A stretch of 64,000 nt of DNA, taken from positions 96,001 to 160,000 of the IMG/VR virus record IMGVR_UViG_3300043788_000040. The stretch is one strand, 5' to 3'. The translations under genes were made by a program, and so were the position numbers. Positions 22,770-32,481 of this stretch are shown here, piece after piece. This stretch comes from a virus. The notes under the pieces are model-generated. The model did no database searches. It saw only the letters and a program-made list of their open reading frames with translations, and had not been told where the DNA came from. How positions within the stretch are numbered: position 1 is the first letter of the stretch; the number at the start of each line of letters is the position of its first letter.

Positions 22770-24767
22770 TTAGTATTCGTACCCCACGACGCACACAGTC
22801 GCGTTGCCAGTGTTCACCTGCGAAAGTGTGCTGATGCCCACTTGCTGACCAGCCGCTATTTCTAATCCATCTGGAAAAACTTGCTCGGCGTTGCCTACGT
22901 CAGCCGTGCCTGAGGTCGTAGATGGAGAGGCGAATAGGGTGCAGTAAATCGGCGAGGTGACGAGGACAGCCGCAGCAGCGCGGATGCGTGCTTTGACTGC
23001 GCCGATGCCAGTATTGACTTGCGAAGCCAGCGTCATGCTCTGCATGCGGAACGTTTTACCAGCCGTCACGGTGTACGAAGTTCCCGTTGTCGTTGCACCG
23101 TTCTTGGTGATGCTCATCGTCTGCAAAGCTTCCGCCGCTGGGGCTGTAACGTTGTCGATATACAACACCACTACGGTGCGACCAGAGTCCTTGAGTTCTT
23201 GCACCTTGGTCGGTGGTACTCCGTTGGATTGTGCCGCGAAACCAACGGTGACCGTGCCCGTCCCTGTGATAGCTGGGCTGAGTCGGACGCGGAAGTATTG
23301 CCAGCCTCCGATGTTGAACTTGAAGGAGATGTAGGTGCTGGCTTGGAACGTGTAGGACTGGATGTCATTGCCGTCAGCGGCATAGTTGACACCTGAGGCT
23401 GCGACCCAGTTGGCGTTATCGTTGCTGACTTCGAAGTTGGCAGCACCACCCGTGATCGTCGTCGTCTGGTTGAAAGTGACTAGGATAGTGTTGTACGAAA
23501 AGTTCGCACTGAGCAGGGTGACGGCTGTATTGTTCGCTGTGGCAGATGTCCAAGATGCAGCGGCGGTGTTGCTAGTGCCGCTGTTCGCTTCCTTCAAAGC
23601 ACCAATGGCGTCAACCTGCAAGGGCGATACGTTACCCGTGGTGATTGTAGTGGGGGTCGTGTTGAACTGTCCGGCGATCAGAAGCTCGTTGGCAGGAGAG
23701 GCTGCGTTTTGACCCGCAGCATCCATCGCCGCGCCCGTATTTCCGACAATGCCAACCTTCTGCACACCAGCCGCAGCCGTTACGACAGCCACACCTGCCA
23801 CTGCTTGCAGATCGTGATTGAGTGCGCCGTGTAAATCGGTAACGGGCAGGACTTGATCGCCTGTCGTGTAAGTGACAGTCGTGTACGCGGTCTCAGCAAT
23901 CGCAGGCAGTACGCCAAGATTTTGAGCGTTCGGAGCCGCGTTATTGTTGGTCAAGTTGCCAACGACTGTGAACGGTGCGGCTGGGTTTGTCACATTGACG
24001 TTCAGCGACGTGCCTGTCGCGGTGATCCCGGTGACGCCAGCGAACAGAGAAGAGTTGACGGCTGGAACTGCAACGGCTGCTGGAGCCGATCCGAAGTTTA
24101 CAATCGCCGTGGCACCGAGTGCTGTACCTGCGACAGCTTGCAAATCTTGGTTGAGAGCACCGTGCAGGTCCGTGACGGGAAGCACCATGTCGCCCGTGGT
24201 GTAGGTGACGGTCGTGTACGCAGTCTCAGCAATAGCACCCAGTACGCCAACTAGCGTTGCGGTAGGAGCCGCGTTGTTGTTCGTTAGGTTTCCGTCAACG
24301 ACCCATGGGGTTGTGCTCTGCGTGACACCCACGGTCCCTGAGATTGCTGTCGTGGAGAGGGAACTGACAAACGAGTCAGCGGAGTATCCGATGGTGACCG
24401 TTCCCGTGCCTGTGATTGCCGAACTAAGAAGAACTTGAAAATACGGAATGGCGGTTAGGTTAAACTGGAAGACCGCGTAGGTGTTCGCTTGAAGCGTGTA
24501 CGTAGCTCCCACCAACGCCAGCGTGGAGGTGTTGAATCCTTGAAGGTTGAAGAAGTTTACGCCGTCGAAGCTGCCCTGAAATGTGACCACGCCGCCTGTG
24601 ATCGTGGTGGTCTGTGACAGGGAAATGTTCAGGGTGTTGTAGGAGATGTCATTGCTGACCAGCGAGGCGACTGTGTTGAGAGCAGTGCTGCTGTTCCACG
24701 CGACAAACGAAGGGTTCTGCGAACCTACGCTGATACTTGCCGTGATGGAATACTGTGACTCAGGCAT
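22770..24767 (-). CDS. Putative virion surface/fibre protein with GNLTNNNAAP repeats
   Basis: T/A/V/G/N-rich; two W.S.TA.NT modules, two GNLTNNNAAP/TDLHGALN repeats, shared C-terminal domain. Confidence 0.8.
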   Translation of the reverse strand: MPESQYSITASISVGSQNPSFVAWNSSTALNTVASLVSNDISYNTLNISLSQTTTITGGVVTFQGSFDGVNFFNLQGFNTSTLALVGATYTLQANTYAVFQFNLTAIPYFQVLLSSAITGTGTVTIGYSADSFVSSLSTTAISGTVGVTQSTTPWVVDGNLTNNNAAPTATLVGVLGAIAETAYTTVTYTTGDMVLPVTDLHGALNQDLQAVAGTALGATAIVNFGSAPAAVAVPAVNSSLFAGVTGITATGTSLNVNVTNPAAPFTVVGNLTNNNAAPNAQNLGVLPAIAETAYTTVTYTTGDQVLPVTDLHGALNHDLQAVAGVAVVTAAAGVQKVGIVGNTGAAMDAAGQNAASPANELLIAGQFNTTPTTITTGNVSPLQVDAIGALKEANSGTSNTAAASWTSATANNTAVTLLSANFSYNTILVTFNQTTTITGGAANFEVSNDNANWVAASGVNYAADGNDIQSYTFQASTYISFKFNIGGWQYFRVRLSPAITGTGTVTVGFAAQSNGVPPTKVQELKDSGRTVVVLYIDNVTAPAAEALQTMSITKNGATTTGTSYTVTAGKTFRMQSMTLASQVNTGIGAVKARIRAAAAVLVTSPIYCTLFASPSTTSGTADVGNAEQVFPDGLEIAAGQQVGISTLSQVNTGNATVCVVGYEY

Positions 24768-24799
24768 TGGATAATCCCCTACAAATCCCTTAGAAAGTC

Positions 24800-24828
24800 A
24801 AAAGAAAAGGGGCACCTTGCGGTGCCCC
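24800..24828 (-). terminator. Rho-independent terminator of the minus-strand ncRNA unit
   Basis: GGGGCACC-GCAA-GGTGCCCC followed by TTTTCTTTT on the minus strand. Confidence 0.85.
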
Positions 24829-24905
24829 TCGTCCGAATGCCTCAACTTCAAGGCACGCCCTGATAAAGATCAAAATTGATGACAGGCAGGATGGGTACGA
24901 TCAAG

Positions 24906-24990
24906 CGGAAGGCACCGGAGTTGAACCGGAGAGGTTTCCCTCCCATCGCTTTATCAGGGCGTGCTCAATGACCTATTGAGATTACCTTCC
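24906..24990 (-). tRNA. Non-canonical tRNA-Sec-like (8/4 allo-tRNA type) RNA, anticodon GAU, no encoded CCA
   Basis: Minus strand: GGAAGGTA/TGCCTTCC acceptor, CTCAAT/ATTGAG D-stem, loop CTGATAA, V-arm GGAGG-GAAA-CCTCT, T-arm CCGG-TTCAACT-CCGG, G discriminator. Confidence 0.8.
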
Positions 24991-25045
24991 GAGAGCAGCC
25001 CTGCCTGTCAAATGTCTAATACCCTCTCCCCAACAATTCAGCCGA

Positions 25046-26602
25046 TTAGATTGCAGCGGCTTCTTCTGACCAGCGGATGGAACCAAAAGCCTTGGAAGTA
25101 CCAGTGCCGAACTTCTGAGCGGCAAGGGTGTAGGTGTCTCCAGGTGCCCCGGCAGCCATGTACTGCAACAGCATGTCGGTGTGCGCGGGAGCCGAAGCAA
25201 GCATAGATGACCAAACCACGGTTCCGGTGCCGATAGTGACAGCAGTCGCCGTGACGTCACGCTTGATGTGCGAACCAGTCGGAATACCAGTCGCCGTGAA
25301 CGCTGCGCCCGTGAGGGTTTGGGGGTTCTTGATGAGCACGACCTTGACCTGCGAGCCGTCTCCGTACGCCTGAACCTCGCGGATAAGGAATGACTCCGTG
25401 GTTGAGTTGGACTGAATCGAGATCAGCGGTACCAGCGTGGCGTTCGGCAGTGTGATGAGGGTCGTGAAGCCGGAGTCGTCAGCGAAGTAGTTGATTGACT
25501 GGGCATACTGCTCATCCGCAGGAATCGTGACCAGCGAACCGCCCTGCGACACGCGCAGAAGTTCTTGGTCGCCAGCGGTGTAAGCCGGGAGGGTGACGGT
25601 CGGGAACGTGCCGGAGTCCGTGACTGCGATCAACGCGCCGATGTTGTTCGTAGTCGGAGCCGCGTTGTTGTTCGTCAGGTTGCCAGCGATTACCCAAGGC
25701 GTGGTGCCCTGCGTGACTGCGACCGTGCCGCCCGTGACATCCACGTTCAGGCTGGAGCCTGTCGCGGTGATGCCCGTGGTTCCGGCGAAGATTGAAACGT
25801 TCGCGCCGATTACGTTTGCAGCAGCGGGTGCCGTACCGAAGGCGGTAACAGCAGTCGCACCCAGTTGGACGCCAGCCGAAGCCTGCATGTCGTTGTTGAC
25901 TGCGCCATGGAGGTCGGTGACTGCCAGTACTTGGTTGCCCGTCGTGTAGGTGACGGTGTTGTAAGCGGTCTCAGCGATGAAGCCCAGCACGCCCATGTTG
26001 TCGGCAATCGGGGCTGCCGTGTTGTTAGACAGGTTGCCAGCAACCGTGACGGTAGTCGTGCTACCAGTCAGGTTGACGTTCAGCGCACCGCCCGTGTTCG
26101 TCAGAGCCGTGGTGCCTGAGAAGATTGAGGAGTTGACAGCCGGAACGTTTACAGCGGCCGGAGCCGAACCGAAGGCGACTACTGCGGTCGCGCCAAGCTG
26201 GACGCCAGCAACAGCCTGCAAGTCGTCATTGACTGCTCCATGCAAGTCGGTGGTCGCCAGAACTTGGAAGCCGTTCGTGTAGGTGTTGGTCGTGTACGCG
26301 GTTGAAGCAAGGAAGCCAAGCGTGCCGAGGTTGTCTGCAACGGGCGCTGCGTTGTTGTTCGTCAACGTGCCCATGACGTTCGTGGTGCCCGCGAACGTGG
26401 CGTTGACGTTTAGAAAGCCGTTTGGAGTGGACGAGAGCGGCTGGAAGTTGCCGTTGCTGTCCATGCTGCCGACTAGGATGCCCGATGTCGGGGACGCTGT
26501 GCCATTAGCAGCAAATAAAGGCGATTCGGTGTTGTTGTCGTACAACCCGGAGACTGTGACTGTCGTGTACTGGTCAGTTCCGGGGAATAGTGTCAATGGC
26601 AT
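25046..26602 (-). CDS. Putative virion surface/fibre protein with G.L.NN.AAP repeats
   Basis: Two full and one partial ~110-aa repeats; C-terminal LVPLISI...DTYTL...WSEE domain shared with the 396-aa gene. Confidence 0.8.
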   Translation of the reverse strand: MPLTLFPGTDQYTTVTVSGLYDNNTESPLFAANGTASPTSGILVGSMDSNGNFQPLSSTPNGFLNVNATFAGTTNVMGTLTNNNAAPVADNLGTLGFLASTAYTTNTYTNGFQVLATTDLHGAVNDDLQAVAGVQLGATAVVAFGSAPAAVNVPAVNSSIFSGTTALTNTGGALNVNLTGSTTTVTVAGNLSNNTAAPIADNMGVLGFIAETAYNTVTYTTGNQVLAVTDLHGAVNNDMQASAGVQLGATAVTAFGTAPAAANVIGANVSIFAGTTGITATGSSLNVDVTGGTVAVTQGTTPWVIAGNLTNNNAAPTTNNIGALIAVTDSGTFPTVTLPAYTAGDQELLRVSQGGSLVTIPADEQYAQSINYFADDSGFTTLITLPNATLVPLISIQSNSTTESFLIREVQAYGDGSQVKVVLIKNPQTLTGAAFTATGIPTGSHIKRDVTATAVTIGTGTVVWSSMLASAPAHTDMLLQYMAAGAPGDTYTLAAQKFGTGTSKAFGSIRWSEEAAAI

Positions 26603-30159: not shown

Positions 30160-30570
30160 GTGATGGAAAGACCATCACGAATCATTGACGCAATCCGTGC
30201 TGAACTCGGACCGCACCTCGTCAAATCCAACTACCGCAAATTTCTCCCCAAGGACGCCAAGCCGTCGTGGGGCACCTGCTACGTGGCGTCCGAAGCCCTG
30301 TACCACTTGTGGGGTAAAGAGAATGGCTTCACGCCCGTCCGCATACCGTACAAGGTCAATCGCACTATGAACGGGCAGCACTGGTTCCTTGAGCATAGGC
30401 CTTCGGGGTTCCAAGTGGACATCACGGCAGACCAGTTCACAAAGTCCCCGCCGAACCGGGTGCCGGACTGGACGAAGGCGGTTCCAGCCGGATTCCTTAC
30501 CAAAAAGCCCTCCAAACGTGCCCAACAGATCATTGACGTCGTCCGCAAAAAATTTCAGTTTGATAATTGA
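30160..30570 (+). CDS. Hypothetical protein with Cys-His-Asp triad (papain/transglutaminase-like)
   Basis: GTCYVASEALY...HWFL...VDITADQF. Confidence 0.6.
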   Translation: MMERPSRIIDAIRAELGPHLVKSNYRKFLPKDAKPSWGTCYVASEALYHLWGKENGFTPVRIPYKVNRTMNGQHWFLEHRPSGFQVDITADQFTKSPPNRVPDWTKAVPAGFLTKKPSKRAQQIIDVVRKKFQFDN

Positions 30571-30595
30571 CAGAATCCCCTAACTACGGTATTCT
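30567..30595 (+). promoter_or_regulatory. Sigma70-type promoter for the Y RNA/Ro60 locus
   Basis: TTGACA-N17-TATTCT. Confidence 0.7.
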
Positions 30596-30664
30596 CCCTT
30601 AGAGAGACTTTGACGGTGGCGTTTCCCTGCGTCCGCAGGGCGACATCCCCTCTTAGCAATTTTG

Positions 30665-30766
30665 GTCGTGCAGCGGTGTTTAGCTGACGGATACTTCTTC
30701 CAATGAACAGCCCGCTAGGGCTGCGGAGGCTTGCCTCCTTTCCGTTGCTTATTGTTCCCTGCCGAC
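30665..30766 (+). ncRNA. Y-RNA-like RNA 1
   Basis: Ends pair; shares 5' GTGCRGCGGT..ACGG.TACTTC and 3' CCG..GC.TATTGTTCCC.GC blocks with copy 2; two internal hairpins; upstream of TROVE. Confidence 0.7.
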
Positions 30767-30775
30767 AATTCTTGT

Positions 30776-30901
30776 GTGCGGCGGTTTTTGGTTACGGTTA
30801 CTTCTGCCTGTAAAGCAGACGAGCGGGGTTCGACCCCCCGGCGACCCGTGAGGGTCGTGGCGTGGGCCTAGTCAAATACCGAAGCCTATTGTTCCCCGCA
30901 C
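30776..30901 (+). ncRNA. Y-RNA-like RNA 2 with permuted tRNA-mimic domain (YrlA-like)
   Basis: T-arm CGGGG-TTCGACC-CCCCG, capped acceptor GCGACCC-GTGA-GGGTCGT, anticodon-like arm TCTGC-CTGTAAA-GCAGA. Confidence 0.8.
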
Positions 30902-31019
30902 CTAATTTCACTCAGCACCAAACGGGACGCTTGCATGAGTACGCTGCCCGTGCTGTTGCCGAAACATGGCGTAGAACCAAGCGATAGGCACAGCAAATTT
31001 TAGTTCAAAGAGGTGAACT

Positions 31020-32450
31020 ATGGCATCACTCAACACTGCAACGAAGACTGCAAAGACTGCAATCAAGACCGCCGAGGGCGGCAAGGCTGTCAACATTGGC
31101 AAGGCGCTTCAGCTTCAGCGCTTGCTGAACGCATGCCTCCTGTGGGAGGACAACTTTTACTCTGACGGCGAGTCCGTCGCCAACGCGATGCGCAAGCTCG
31201 TGCGTGAGGTTCCTGCCGAGAAGGTCGCCGAACTCGCGATCAAGGCTCGTGAAGAGCAGAAGCTTCGCCACGCCCCGCTGCTCATCGTGTACGAGATGAC
31301 CCTCGCCTCCAAGTCTCACCGTGAGCTTGTCGGGGAGACGCTCGCCCGTGTGGTTCAGCGCCCGGACGAGATCACTGAGTTCGTGGCGATCTACTACAAG
31401 CTTGGCGGCGGGAAGCGTCCGCTCTCCAAGCAGGTCAAGAAGGGTCTGGCCGCAGCCTTCAACAAGTTCAACGAGTACTCGCTCGCAAAGTACAACCGTG
31501 ATAAGGACATCAAGCTCGCGGACGTGCTGGCGCTCGTTCACCCGAAGCCGAAGGACAAGGAACAGGGTCTTCTTTTCGCGAAGCTTGCGAACAAGGATCA
31601 CCTGCCGAAGAAGACGAAGTACGCCGCGTTTCCGGTGGCTAACACCTACCGTGCGCTCGCAAAGAACTTCGTCGGCCTCGTCACGCCGGACACTTGGGAG
31701 GTCGCACTCTCTGGTGGAGCGGACAAGAAGGAGACTTTCACTCGTCTCATCGCCGAGGACAAGCTTGGTGGTCTGGCAATGATCCGCAACCTGCGCAACA
31801 TGCAGGAAGCGGGCGTGTCGGATGCGGTCATCAAGCAGGGTCTCTCGCAGATGAACGCTGAGCGTGTGCTTCCGTTCCGCTTCATCTCGGCGGCGAAGTA
31901 CGCTCCGAAGTTTGAGCAGCACCTTGAGGCAGCGATGTTCAAGTGCCTTGAGGGCTTCTCCAAGCTGAAGGGCAAGACTGTGCTGCTCGTGGACGTTTCT
32001 GGTTCCATGGACAACAAGGTCGGCGGCAAGTCTGATCTCCAGCGTGTGGACGCAGCCGTAGCTCTCGCAATGTTGCTCCGTGAGATCGGCGAGGACGTGG
32101 TTGTCTACTCGTTCTCGGACAATGAGGTTCTCGTTCCGACTCGTCGTGGCTTCGGCCTCGCTGAGGCGATCAAGAAGTCTCAGCGCCACTCCGGCACCTA
32201 CCTTGGTCGCTCTTTGACTGCGGTGGCTCGTGCCGAGAATGACGCAGACCGTGTCATTGTGATCTCGGACGAACAGGCTCACGATAACGTCTCCAACCCG
32301 TTCCACAAGACCGGGACGAAGGCATACATGCTCAACGTCGCTTCTGAAAAGAACGGCGTCGGCTACAAGAACGGCTGGAACCACATTGATGGCTGGTCTG
32401 AAGCTTGCGTTGACTATATCCTCGCGGAGGAAGGTTCTTCCCGCGACTAA
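31020..32450 (+). CDS. rsr: Ro60/TROVE-domain RNA-binding protein with vWA domain
   Basis: LLWEDNFY, RPDEITE, FNEYSLAKY, TWEVALS, IRNLRNM, LPFRF; vWA LVDVSGSM and ISDEQ. Confidence 0.93.
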   Translation: MASLNTATKTAKTAIKTAEGGKAVNIGKALQLQRLLNACLLWEDNFYSDGESVANAMRKLVREVPAEKVAELAIKAREEQKLRHAPLLIVYEMTLASKSHRELVGETLARVVQRPDEITEFVAIYYKLGGGKRPLSKQVKKGLAAAFNKFNEYSLAKYNRDKDIKLADVLALVHPKPKDKEQGLLFAKLANKDHLPKKTKYAAFPVANTYRALAKNFVGLVTPDTWEVALSGGADKKETFTRLIAEDKLGGLAMIRNLRNMQEAGVSDAVIKQGLSQMNAERVLPFRFISAAKYAPKFEQHLEAAMFKCLEGFSKLKGKTVLLVDVSGSMDNKVGGKSDLQRVDAAVALAMLLREIGEDVVVYSFSDNEVLVPTRRGFGLAEAIKKSQRHSGTYLGRSLTAVARAENDADRVIVISDEQAHDNVSNPFHKTGTKAYMLNVASEKNGVGYKNGWNHIDGWSEACVDYILAEEGSSRD

Positions 32451-32456
32451 CACAAA

Positions 32457-32481
32457 GGGGGCACCGAAAGTGCCCCCTTTT
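32457..32481 (+). terminator. Rho-independent terminator after Ro60
   Basis: GGGGGCAC-CGAAA-GTGCCCCC-TTTT, also A-rich upstream (possibly bidirectional). Confidence 0.8.

What the first reader, a model, noticed from the sequence alone, without database searches (positions are those of the whole stretch)
24800..25022. Self-locking tRNA unit: a tRNA-like RNA followed in cis by a perfect antisense copy of its own anticodon arm
Seen: on the minus strand, between two fibre-like genes, lies a complete small transcription unit. A GTATTAGA motif (25022-25015) sits 12 nt before UGACAGGCAGG (25010-25000). That leader pairs perfectly with CCUGCCUGUCA (24890-24880), clamping the tRNA-like domain. After a small AUCA-AUUU-UGAU hairpin comes CUUUAUCAGGGCGUGC (24868-24853), the exact complement of the anticodon-arm segment GCACGCCCUGAUAAAG (24964-24949). 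A competing hairpin UGCCU/AGGCA and a terminator follow. The native anticodon stem is weak (C-A pair, bulged A), so the 16-bp duplex should outcompete it. Inference: the precursor is made with its anticodon masked and is activated only by processing or refolding. It could be a single-transcript tRNA toxin/antitoxin, a timed translational switch, or a nuclease-protected reserve tRNA. I know of no described system with this architecture.
Basis: partly seen in the sequence, partly recalled or inferred. Interest (0 to 1): 0.93.

Follow-up and report, generated by a model that had tools for sequence, protein, structure and literature searches.

The report
Odd phage tRNA with antisense mask
A jumbo-phage fragment carries an unusually shaped tRNA (serine-type body, isoleucine anticodon) followed by an RNA segment that is the exact antisense of its anticodon arm; the same pairing recurs and changes in step in more than 20 relatives from bacteria and phages, so it looks like a built-in way to silence a tRNA that would otherwise misread the genetic code.

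Summary
On the minus strand, 24990-24906 is a tRNA-like gene with an 8-bp acceptor stem and a 4-bp T stem. It has a long variable arm, discriminator G73 and an Ile anticodon loop (GAU). This makes it a member of the published (8/4) allo-tRNA class (Mukai 2017).

The 16-nt trailer block (24868-24853) is a perfect antisense copy of its anticodon arm. This is not chance. I collected 23 members from two phages, Actinomycetota, Acidobacteriota and other metagenome contigs, with anticodons GAU, GAC and GCG. In every one, a downstream segment pairs with the whole anticodon loop plus the 5' strand of the stem, and it co-varies with them. Model hits added GCC and a GAG-like anticodon.

Among tRNAs sharing the same acceptor and T arm, those with serine anticodons lack the antisense (1 of 199).

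In 18 of 23 members the antisense starts 6-8 nt after an extended -10 promoter, so it is a separate small RNA. The window has no such promoter. Its antisense is co-transcribed, and a window-specific 11-bp leader/trailer clamp is added.

Function is inferred: neutralising a potentially mistranslating tRNA. I obtained no transcript data. I found no published description of the antisense partner. This scan has already reported the same arrangement on at least seven other genomes.

The parts
25015..25022 (-). GTATTAGA motif, candidate phage-specific promoter element for the unit
   Evidence: It occurs 11 times in the 170.5-kb record against about 3 expected, and mostly after stop codons or before structured leaders. 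There is no sigma-70 promoter in the region. Promoter activity is inferred, not shown.
25000..25010 (-). Leader arm A of the 11-bp clamp (TGACAGGCAGG)
   Evidence: It is a perfect complement of 24890-24880 and forms in the MFE of the precursor. It is specific to the window, so it cannot be tested by covariation. The overlapping bases 25003-24998 (CAGGGC) also complement the 5' strand of the anticodon stem over 6 nt.
24906..24990 (-). (8/4) allo-tRNA-type gene: 85 nt to G73, anticodon GAU at 24955-24953, no encoded CCA
   Evidence: Rfam tRNA-Sec hit of 32 bits. Family model R1 scores it at 61 bits, E 3e-11. The cloverleaf is supported by covariation in 23 sequences: 88% of cells paired, and pair 8:86 is GC in 12 and AU in 10.
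24949..24964 (-). Target block B: last D-stem base, 5' strand of the anticodon stem, the whole anticodon loop, and 2 nt beyond
   Evidence: Perfect 16-nt complement of 24868-24853. The same tRNA positions are the target in all 23 family members.
24880..24890 (-). Trailer arm A' of the clamp (CCTGCCTGTCA)
   Evidence: In alignment A1 it lies where relatives carry the extended -10 TGnTAnnnT. The window has TGTCATCAA, which lacks the final T.
24869..24880 (-). Small AUCA-AUUU-UGAU hairpin or spacer
   Evidence: Read directly from the sequence. It corresponds to the 6-8-nt promoter-to-start spacer of relatives.
24853..24868 (-). Anti-anticodon block B' (CTTTATCAGGGCGTGC)
   Evidence: It is homologous in position and role to the 5' seed of the small RNA in relatives. 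There is no other match of 10 nt or more for it in the phage record.
24837..24856 (-). 7-bp hairpin that overlaps the 3' end of B' and so competes with the B:B' duplex
   Evidence: MFE of the trailer alone and of the precursor.
24798..24830 (-). Intrinsic terminator (10-bp stem, GCAA loop, T run)
   Evidence: Every family member ends in a comparable terminator.
25046..26602 (-). Upstream flanking gene (518 aa), a repeat-containing structural-region protein
   Evidence: Paralogous to the downstream gene. No Pfam or PHROG family. Relatives of this gene in other viral contigs have no such tRNA beside them.
22770..24767 (-). Downstream flanking gene (665 aa), paralogue of the upstream one

Best explanation
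The unit is a two-part, RNA-only cassette.

**Part 1: the tRNA.** It is an (8/4) allo-tRNA. Its body carries the marks of serine identity (long variable arm, G73, G1-C72/G2-C71/A3-U70), but its anticodon loop is a canonical isoleucine one (C-U-GAU-A-A). Published work shows that tRNAs of this class can be charged with serine, decode non-serine codons in E. coli, and be toxic.

**Part 2: the anti-anticodon RNA.** This segment lies just downstream and ends at a shared terminator.
- I infer that its single-stranded 5' part first pairs with the pre-ordered 7-nt anticodon loop.
- It would then invade the deliberately weak anticodon stem, giving a 13-20-bp duplex (16 bp here).
- That duplex would remove the anticodon from decoding. 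It would probably also make both RNAs a substrate for a double-strand RNase.

**Trans versus cis.** In most relatives the antisense is a separate small RNA with its own extended -10 promoter, like an antidote made in excess. In this phage that promoter is missing. The antisense is therefore made as the trailer of the tRNA transcript, which is driven by a phage-type GTATTAGA element, and an extra 11-bp leader/trailer clamp encloses the tRNA.

**Shown versus inferred.**
- Shown: the sequences; the cloverleaf and its covariation; the antisense covariation; the restriction to non-serine anticodons; the promoter and terminator placement in relatives.
- Inferred: serine charging, mistranslation or toxicity, neutralisation by the antisense, and whatever relieves it.
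For: 1. The 8/4 cloverleaf has compensatory changes in all arms of 23 sequences. Of all cells, 88% are paired, against 36-48% when partners are slid. The eighth acceptor pair switches between GC and AU.
2. In all 23 members the full anticodon loop is complementary to a downstream segment, together with 4-8 nt of the 5' stem strand and about 2 nt on the 3' side. There are 3-5 pair types per variable column, and pairing stops sharply at +9. Loop variants CTGATAA, TTGATAA, TTGATAT, CTGACAC, ATGACAA, CTGACAT, GTGACAT, CTGACAA and CTGCGAA are each matched. The only exception is position 32 of GTGACAT in L284, which is a G-G mismatch.
3. The model search added members with anticodons GCC and GAG-like, each with a matching antisense.
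4. In a set drawn without any anticodon or antisense requirement, tRNAs with serine anticodons had the antisense in 1 of 199 cases. Non-serine ones had it in 11 of 15, and the 4 exceptions are 2 true tRNA-Sec and 2 doubtful loop calls. Fisher p = 2e-14.
5. An extended -10 ends 6-8 nt before the antisense in 18 of 23 members, against a 0.4% background.
6. Cognate tRNA plus small RNA gain a mean of -11.5 kcal/mol on dimerising, against -0.8 for non-cognate pairs. The window's value is -12.9.
7. The anticodon stem is systematically the weakest helix: 64.5% of cells paired, and pair 31:39 unpaired in 12 of 23.
8. There is no conserved protein neighbour. Distribution is patchy: 3 of 101 and 1 of 151 genomes sampled. 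This is the pattern of a self-contained accessory cassette.
9. PMC5389517 reports that allo-tRNAs insert Ser at Leu codons in E. coli and that their induction stops growth.
Against: - There is no expression, processing, charging or toxicity data for any member.
- The weak anticodon stem (C31-A39 mismatch, bulge) may make the RNA a poor decoder. PMC5389517 found that allo-tRNA-UAU variants with destabilised stems did not suppress in E. coli.
- In the window's full precursor the nested MFE keeps the cloverleaf plus clamp by 4.3 kcal/mol over the antisense duplex. Masking in cis is therefore not predicted by that model, and pseudoknots were not evaluated.
- One allo-tRNA-GAU with a perfect anticodon stem (L337) has no antisense within 1.5 kb.
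- The genome surveys scored only a small share of first-look candidates, so 'patchy' is a weak statement.
- Why a lytic-looking jumbo phage would carry such a cassette is unexplained.
Confidence: 0.55

Rival explanations
1. This is a non-decoding regulatory RNA pair. The tRNA-shaped RNA never reaches the ribosome. It serves as a structured decoy, sponge or stabiliser for the small RNA (or the reverse), and the anticodon loop is used only as a pre-ordered U-turn 'kissing' loop for fast antisense recognition. The small RNA or trailer may have other targets, such as the identical 7-nt loop of the host's genuine tRNA-Ile.
For: - The anticodon stems are weak or mismatched across the family.
- Destabilised allo-tRNA-UAU species were inactive in translation in E. 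coli, and the authors suggested regulatory noncoding roles.
- The partner has the shape of a typical small RNA: 5' seed, hairpin, terminator and its own promoter.
- From my own knowledge: tRNA-spacer-derived sponges (3'ETS-leuZ) and YUNR U-turn loops in antisense systems are established.
Against: - All tRNA features needed for processing, charging and decoding are kept under covariation: the 8/4 branch, the T loop GTTCRA, G73, U33 and A37 in 23 of 23.
- The antisense is restricted to non-serine anticodons. A pure decoy would not be expected to show this.
- The window antisense has no other match of 10 nt or more in the phage record.
Confidence: 0.22
2. This is a phage counter-defence or takeover tool. 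The tRNA mimic is a bait for host enzymes that cut or modify the anticodon loop, or a deliberately released mistranslator used against the host. The antisense and clamp keep it inert, or protected from nucleases, until late infection.
For: - The cassette sits as a promoter-to-terminator insert between two late structural paralogues.
- It is absent from relatives of those genes.
- The phage already invests in 31 ordinary tRNAs.
- A second, nearly complete phage (L015) carries a homologue near its terminase and portal genes.
Against: - Most members are chromosomal, lie next to housekeeping genes, and carry host-type promoters. The cassette is therefore not phage-specific.
- No nuclease or defence gene is linked to it.
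- Mistranslation would hit phage proteins as well.
Confidence: 0.1
3. This is a DNA-level or relic feature. The inverted repeats would be terminal repeats of a miniature mobile element, a recombination site, or the scar of an inverted duplication of part of a tRNA gene, with no RNA function.
For: - The B and B' blocks would delimit a 112-bp segment with perfect 16-bp terminal inverted repeats.
Against: - The cloverleaf spans the left 'end' of such an element, with 8 acceptor pairs formed across it.
- Complementarity is maintained by compensatory changes across distant lineages and different anticodons.
- A promoter sits at a fixed 6-8 nt from the antisense, and a terminator follows it.
- There are no further copies in the phage record.
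Confidence: 0.03

Closest known systems
(8/4) allo-tRNAs (Mukai et al., Nucleic Acids Res 2017, PMC5389517; reviewed in PMC7609411)
   Same: - A 12-bp acceptor branch split 8+4.
- A tRNA-Sec-like long D stem with a small loop.
- A long variable arm and G73.
- A non-serine anticodon on a serine-type body.
- Sporadic occurrence in soil bacteria and phages.
- Found as near-misses of the tRNA-Sec model.
   Different: - The papers' main texts do not mention any antisense or complementary flanking segment: 0 occurrences of 'antisense' or 'complementary'.
- The hosts found here (Solirubrobacterales, Conexibacter, Gaiellaceae) are outside the taxa those papers list.
- Those papers stress links to protein toxin-antitoxin genes. 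Here the neighbours are unrelated housekeeping or phage structural genes.
Bacterial tRNA-Sec (Rfam RF01852)
   Same: The long acceptor stem, the 6-bp D stem and the long variable arm. It is the best Rfam hit.
   Different: - The anticodon is GAU, not UCA.
- The T stem is 4 bp, not 5 bp.
- The score of 32 bits is below the gathering score of 47.
RNA-antitoxin systems (type I such as hok/sok, and type VIII such as SdsR/RyeA and CreT/CreA); cited from my own knowledge
   Same: A small, promoter-driven antisense RNA is encoded beside the element it neutralises by base pairing. The cassette is self-contained and patchily distributed.
   Different: The target is a tRNA's anticodon arm, not an mRNA or a small-RNA toxin. 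Toxicity, differential stability and addiction have not been tested.
Kissing-loop antisense control with U-turn (YUNR) loops: CopA/CopT, RNAI/RNAII, Sok/hok; cited from my own knowledge
   Same: Recognition starts at a 6-7-nt loop pre-ordered by a U-turn, like an anticodon loop, and then spreads into a stem.
   Different: Here the loop is a real tRNA anticodon loop, and the outcome is not replication or translation control of a linked gene.
Functional tRNA spacers (3'ETS-leuZ sponge) and T-box leaders; cited from my own knowledge
   Same: A tRNA trailer has a base-pairing function (3'ETS). An RNA reads a tRNA anticodon by pairing (T-box specifier).
   Different: - 3'ETS pairs with other small RNAs, not with its own tRNA.
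- T-box leaders pair with 3-4 nt only, sense charging through the acceptor end, and control downstream genes.
- The window's unit is closed by its own terminator, so it does not control a downstream gene.

Membership tests
(8/4) allo-tRNA | 12-bp acceptor branch composed of an 8-bp acceptor stem and a 4-bp T stem | tested here: met
   Window: GGAAGGTA/TGCCTTCC plus CCGG/CCGG. Across 23 sequences, acceptor cells are 99.5% paired and pair 8:86 is GC in 12 and AU in 10. T-stem pairs 71:85 and 72:84 each change on both sides in 12 sequences.
(8/4) allo-tRNA | tRNA-Sec-like D arm (long stem, small loop) and long variable arm | tested here: met
   The D stem is 6 bp and all 6 pairs show compensatory change. 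The loop is 4 nt in most members and 5 nt in the window. The variable arm is a 5-6-bp stem that covaries.
(8/4) allo-tRNA | Discriminator G73 or U73 (serine-type identity) with a non-serine anticodon | tested here: met
   G73 is invariant, although the search pattern required it. The anticodon is GAU in a canonical C-U-NNN-A-A loop.
(8/4) allo-tRNA | Charged (with Ser) and active in decoding | not testable with these tools
   This is known only for other members tested in E. coli (PMC5389517). The weak anticodon stem here leaves it open.
tRNA-Sec | UCA anticodon, 8/5 (bacterial) branch, Rfam gathering score | tested here: not met
   The anticodon is GAU, the T stem is 4 bp, and the score is 32 bits against 47.
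allo-tRNA + anti-anticodon RNA cassette (the family defined here and in earlier notes of this scan) | A downstream segment on the same strand is complementary to the whole anticodon loop plus the 5' stem strand, and co-varies with them | tested here: met
   16 of 16 nt in the window. All 23 of 23 members show it, with compensatory changes.
allo-tRNA + anti-anticodon RNA cassette (the family defined here and in earlier notes of this scan) | The antisense is the 5' end of a separate small RNA with its own promoter | tested here: not met
   18 of 23 relatives have TGnTAnnnT 6-8 nt upstream. The window has TGTCATCAA at that place and no sigma-70-type site. The window is therefore a co-transcribed (cis) variant. 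Promoterless trailer copies also occur in L217, L220 and L336, beside a promoter-driven copy.
allo-tRNA + anti-anticodon RNA cassette (the family defined here and in earlier notes of this scan) | A shared intrinsic terminator closes the unit | tested here: met
   window; relatives.
RNA-antitoxin toxin-antitoxin systems | The toxic product is neutralised by a less stable antisense RNA; loss of the antitoxin arrests growth | not testable with these tools
   Only the pairing potential is shown. Toxicity is inferred from other allo-tRNAs.

The most novel reading that the evidence does not exclude
This is an all-RNA toxin/antidote system in which the toxin is a mistranslating tRNA (serine inserted at Ile, Val, Arg, Gly or Leu codons). 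The antidote is a small RNA or trailer that unzips and masks its anticodon arm. Bacteria and phages would use it as an addiction, abortive-infection or takeover module. In this jumbo phage it has been rewired into a single self-clamped transcript under a phage promoter.
Probability: 0.35. Interest if true: 0.9.

Novelty: new variant of a known kind. Interest (0 to 1): 0.8.

Why it matters
Natural tRNAs that deliberately misread sense codons are known, but how cells tolerate them has been an open question. A dedicated antisense RNA that co-evolves with the anticodon would be a direct answer.

It would be a new way of controlling a tRNA: by base pairing to its anticodon arm, rather than by charging, modification or cleavage. 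It would also be a candidate for a toxin-antitoxin type whose toxin is a tRNA.

It is directly testable with short synthetic genes in E. coli. It also offers a natural, programmable off-switch for engineered suppressor tRNAs.

The phage copy shows that the cassette moves between cellular and viral genomes and can be rewired from a trans to a cis arrangement.

Tried and rejected
- **Tool misses.** ARAGORN found no tRNA in the window, and Rfam at gathering thresholds found nothing. These are misses by the tools, not absence.
- **Phage collection.** blastn of the region against 50,697 phage records gave no match.
- **Relatives of the flanking genes.** blastn and nhmmer of the unit against these loci gave nothing, and the covariance model also found nothing there. 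The cassette is therefore not part of that gene neighbourhood.
- **False positives from the first pattern scan.**
  - L013 and L017 are tandem repeats of a hairpin plus a T-arm.
  - L016 and L018 are an ordinary tRNA with a chance TTATCAG downstream.
  - About 50 metagenome hits showed no extension of the complementarity.
- **Rfam on 12 family loci.** There is no family for the small RNA.
- **Conserved protein partner.** None was found. The neighbours are MFS, DUF2332, YkuD, PAP2, Lhr, RmlD, AdoHcyase and YbeY.
- **Other targets of the antisense.** There is no match of 10 nt or more elsewhere in the phage record.
- **Genome surveys.** The surveys with the model scored only a small share of candidates and should not be read as absence.
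- **MITE or recombination-site reading.** Rejected, because the cloverleaf crosses the repeat boundary and the pairing co-varies.
- **Retron msr/msd reading.** Rejected. It was prompted by the flanking inverted repeat, but there is no reverse transcriptase nearby and the inner fold is a tRNA cloverleaf.
- **attP reading.** Rejected. A whole tRNA gene is present, not a 3' fragment, and no integrase was seen.

Full report
**1. The observation**

- GTATTAGA at 25022-25015.
- TGACAGGCAGG at 25010-25000 and its perfect complement at 24890-24880.
- GCACGCCCTGATAAAG at 24964-24949 and its perfect complement at 24868-24853.
- A small hairpin, a second hairpin, and a terminator at 24830-24807 followed by a T run.

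The repeat finder returns the 16-nt and 11-nt pairs as 100% complementary, and the terminator scan finds the hairpin. By simple arithmetic, a perfect 16-mer complement within 231 nt is expected about 6e-6 times.

The window is part of a 170.5-kb viral record estimated at 54% complete, that is, a jumbo-phage fragment. That record carries 31 ordinary tRNA genes elsewhere, on the other strand.

**2. The tRNA-like domain**

ARAGORN calls nothing here. Rfam gives only a sub-threshold tRNA-Sec hit, 32 bits against 47.

The fold is nevertheless a clean cloverleaf:
- an 8-bp acceptor stem;
- a 6-bp D stem;
- an anticodon loop C-U-GAU-A-A on a weak stem (C-A at 31:39, one bulged A);
- a 5-bp variable arm capped by GAAA;
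- a 4-bp T stem with loop TTCAACT;
- G73, and no encoded CCA.

This is the (8/4) architecture of the allo-tRNAs described by Mukai et al. (PMC5389517). Those authors showed that such tRNAs can insert serine at leucine codons in E. coli, and that inducing them stops growth.

**3. Relatives exist and keep the antisense**

I first scanned for the anticodon loop, a T loop and the reverse complement of the loop. This gave one viral homologue (L015) and nine metagenomic ones in two clades.
- The scan required only 7 nt of complementarity.
- In every true homologue the complementarity extends a further 4-8 nt into the 5' strand of the anticodon stem.
- The stem sequences differ between homologues (CACGCC, GCCCAC, CGTCGC, CGCCAC, CACTGA and others), so the extension is compensatory.
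- In the chance hits the extension is 0-2 nt.

I then scanned viral and GTDB genome contigs with a pattern built only from the acceptor stem and T arm, with no anticodon or antisense requirement. This gave 240 distinct tRNAs.
- In 25 of them the longest complement to the 170 nt downstream is 10 nt or more. Nearly all of these map to tRNA positions 23-33, the anticodon arm.
- The upstream control peaks at 6-7 nt and never exceeds 11 nt.
- The new members carry other anticodons, GAC and GCG, each with a matching antisense of up to 20 nt.
- Model hits added members with anticodons GCC and GAG-like.

**4. Quantification**

*The tRNA:antisense pairing.* Aligned on the loop, positions -4 to +8 are paired in 20-23 of 23 sequences, with 3-5 different pair types at the variable columns. 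Pairing collapses at +9.

*Cognate versus non-cognate.*
- Cognate pairs have a mean of 14.2 of 16 Watson-Crick pairs, against 9.2 for non-cognate pairs.
- Cognate dimers gain a mean of -11.5 kcal/mol, against -0.8 for non-cognate ones.

*The cloverleaf.*
- 88% of cells are paired, against 36-48% when partners are slid.
- 21 of 30 pairs show changes on both sides.
- The eighth acceptor pair is GC in 12 sequences and AU in 10.
- The anticodon stem is the weakest helix: 64.5% of cells paired, and pair 31:39 unpaired in 12 of 23.

*Association with anticodon type.* In the unbiased set, serine-anticodon tRNAs with the same acceptor and T arm have an antisense in 1 of 199 cases. Non-serine ones have it in 11 of 15. 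The four exceptions are two genuine tRNA-Sec and two doubtful loop calls. Fisher p = 2e-14.

*One exception found with the model.* L337 is an allo-tRNA-GAU with a perfectly paired anticodon stem and no antisense within 1.5 kb.

**5. Anatomy of the partner**

In 18 of 23 members an extended -10 element (TGnTAnnnT) ends 6-8 nt before the first complementary base. The background rate is 0.4%. In most members, therefore, the antisense is the 5' seed of a separate small RNA that runs into a hairpin and a terminator.

In the members I inspected I saw no terminator-like hairpin followed by a T run between the tRNA and this promoter. I did not scan the relatives for this. If none is there, read-through tRNA transcripts would carry the antisense in cis as well.

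Other variants:
- L217, L220 and L336 carry two antisense copies: a promoterless one in the trailer and a promoter-driven one further on.
- The L042 clade also has an 8-9-nt anti-anticodon stretch in the 5' leader.

Rfam has no family for the small RNA.

**6. What is special in the window**

- There is no sigma-70-type promoter anywhere in the unit.
- Where relatives have the -10, the window has TGTCATCAA. This is part of clamp arm A', which pairs with the leader.
- The only promoter candidate is GTATTAGA. It occurs 11 times in the phage record against about 3 expected, and mostly in intergenic positions.
- The phage version therefore looks like a single transcript: leader, tRNA, spacer, antisense, terminator.

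Folding results:
- Nested-structure folding of that precursor keeps the cloverleaf enclosed by the clamp (-87.7 kcal/mol) over the forced 16-bp duplex (-83.4 kcal/mol).
- Once tRNA and trailer are separate molecules, the duplex is favoured by 12.9 kcal/mol.
- 'Born locked' is thus not shown. The lock may act after processing, or as a pseudoknot that these tools cannot score.

The clamp is specific to the window, so it cannot be tested by covariation.

**7. Context**

- The flanking genes are paralogues with about 100-aa repeats and have no known family.
- Relatives of these genes in other viral contigs have no such tRNA. The cassette behaves like a promoter-to-terminator insert (a moron).
- In bacteria the neighbours are unrelated housekeeping genes.
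- In the second phage (L015, 96% complete) it lies near the terminase and portal genes.
- Surveys with the model found it in 3 of 101 and 1 of 151 sampled genomes of two groups, with low sensitivity.
- The antisense has no other match of 10 nt or more in the phage record.

**8. Interpretation**

The best-supported reading is an RNA-only cassette in which an anti-anticodon RNA neutralises a potentially mistranslating serine-type tRNA (confidence 0.55).

Alternatives:
- The main alternative is a non-decoding regulatory pair that merely exploits the anticodon loop as a kissing loop (0.22).
- A phage-specific bait or weapon role (0.10) is possible for this copy, but it cannot explain the chromosomal majority.
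- A DNA-level relic is essentially excluded (0.03).

**9. Novelty**

- Allo-tRNAs are published. Their main texts and a review contain no mention of an antisense or complementary flank, and five further literature searches found none.
- The library is incomplete, so this means 'not found', not 'absent'.
- Within this scan the same arrangement has already been reported by follow-up agents on at least seven other genomes. I saw those notes only. They agree with my results but are not independent evidence.
  - the serine versus non-serine association test;
  - the promoter-position statistic;
  - members with GAU, GAC, GCG and GCC anticodons;
  - the description of a promoterless, clamped cis variant in a jumbo phage.

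Noticed in passing
genome record outside the window: G000:C1 30590-33571, 68467-70662, 75052-79681 (+ strand): The 31 ordinary tRNA genes are grouped by codon family. One block holds Val/Ala/Asp/Cys/Gly/Glu, one holds Tyr/Leu, and one holds Pro/Met/Phe. No Ile, Ser, Thr, Asn, Lys, Arg, His, Gln or Trp tRNA lies in the 54% of the genome that is held.
   Followed up: no
window 30151, 33102, 40505, 48986, 58691, 63567 (+) and 25022, 46278 (-), plus three sites outside the window: GTATTAGA occurs 11 times against about 3 expected, and mostly just after stop codons or before structured leaders. It is a candidate phage-specific promoter element.
   Followed up: partly
window 22770-24767 and 25046-26602 (-): The two genes flanking the RNA unit are paralogues built from about 100-aa repeats (GNLTNNNAAP...TAYTTVTYTTG...VTDLHGA). 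They are 68% identical over 165 aa and have no Pfam or PHROG family.
   Followed up: partly
L013 and L017 (viral contigs IMGVR_UViG_3300010885_036597 and 3300044633_001820): These carry tandem copies of a unit made of a perfect hairpin (CCCTGATAAGATAT...ATATCTTATCAGGG) followed by a T-arm-like GTGGGTTCGACTCCCAC. They look like repeated tRNA 3' halves, perhaps integration scars.
   Followed up: no
L337 (G002:C2:47889-47971, -): This is an allo-tRNA-like gene with a GAU loop and a perfectly paired anticodon stem, but no antisense within 1.5 kb. It is the one clear exception, and it hints that a weak stem and an antisense go together.
   Followed up: partly
L339 (G023:C78:59900-59991, +) and its trailer: The small RNA of this member pairs with the anticodon arm (11 nt) and also with the 5' strand of the acceptor and D region (11 nt). 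Some partners may therefore unfold more than the anticodon arm.
   Followed up: no
all 23 family members plus L340: Every anticodon seen starts with G34 (GAU, GAC, GCG, GCC, GAG-like). U33 and A37 are invariant.
   Followed up: no
L213, L214, L282, L284, L301 trailers: In the Solirubrobacterales clade, a T-arm-like stretch in the spacer (GGGTTCGAGTCTGG) is complementary to CCAGACTCGACCC inside the small RNA. This is a second long-range pairing that brackets the promoter and the seed.
   Followed up: no
window 30567-32481: An earlier first-reader note (e1-5735341) reports a phage Ro60 operon with Y-like RNAs in this window. I did not check it.
   Followed up: no
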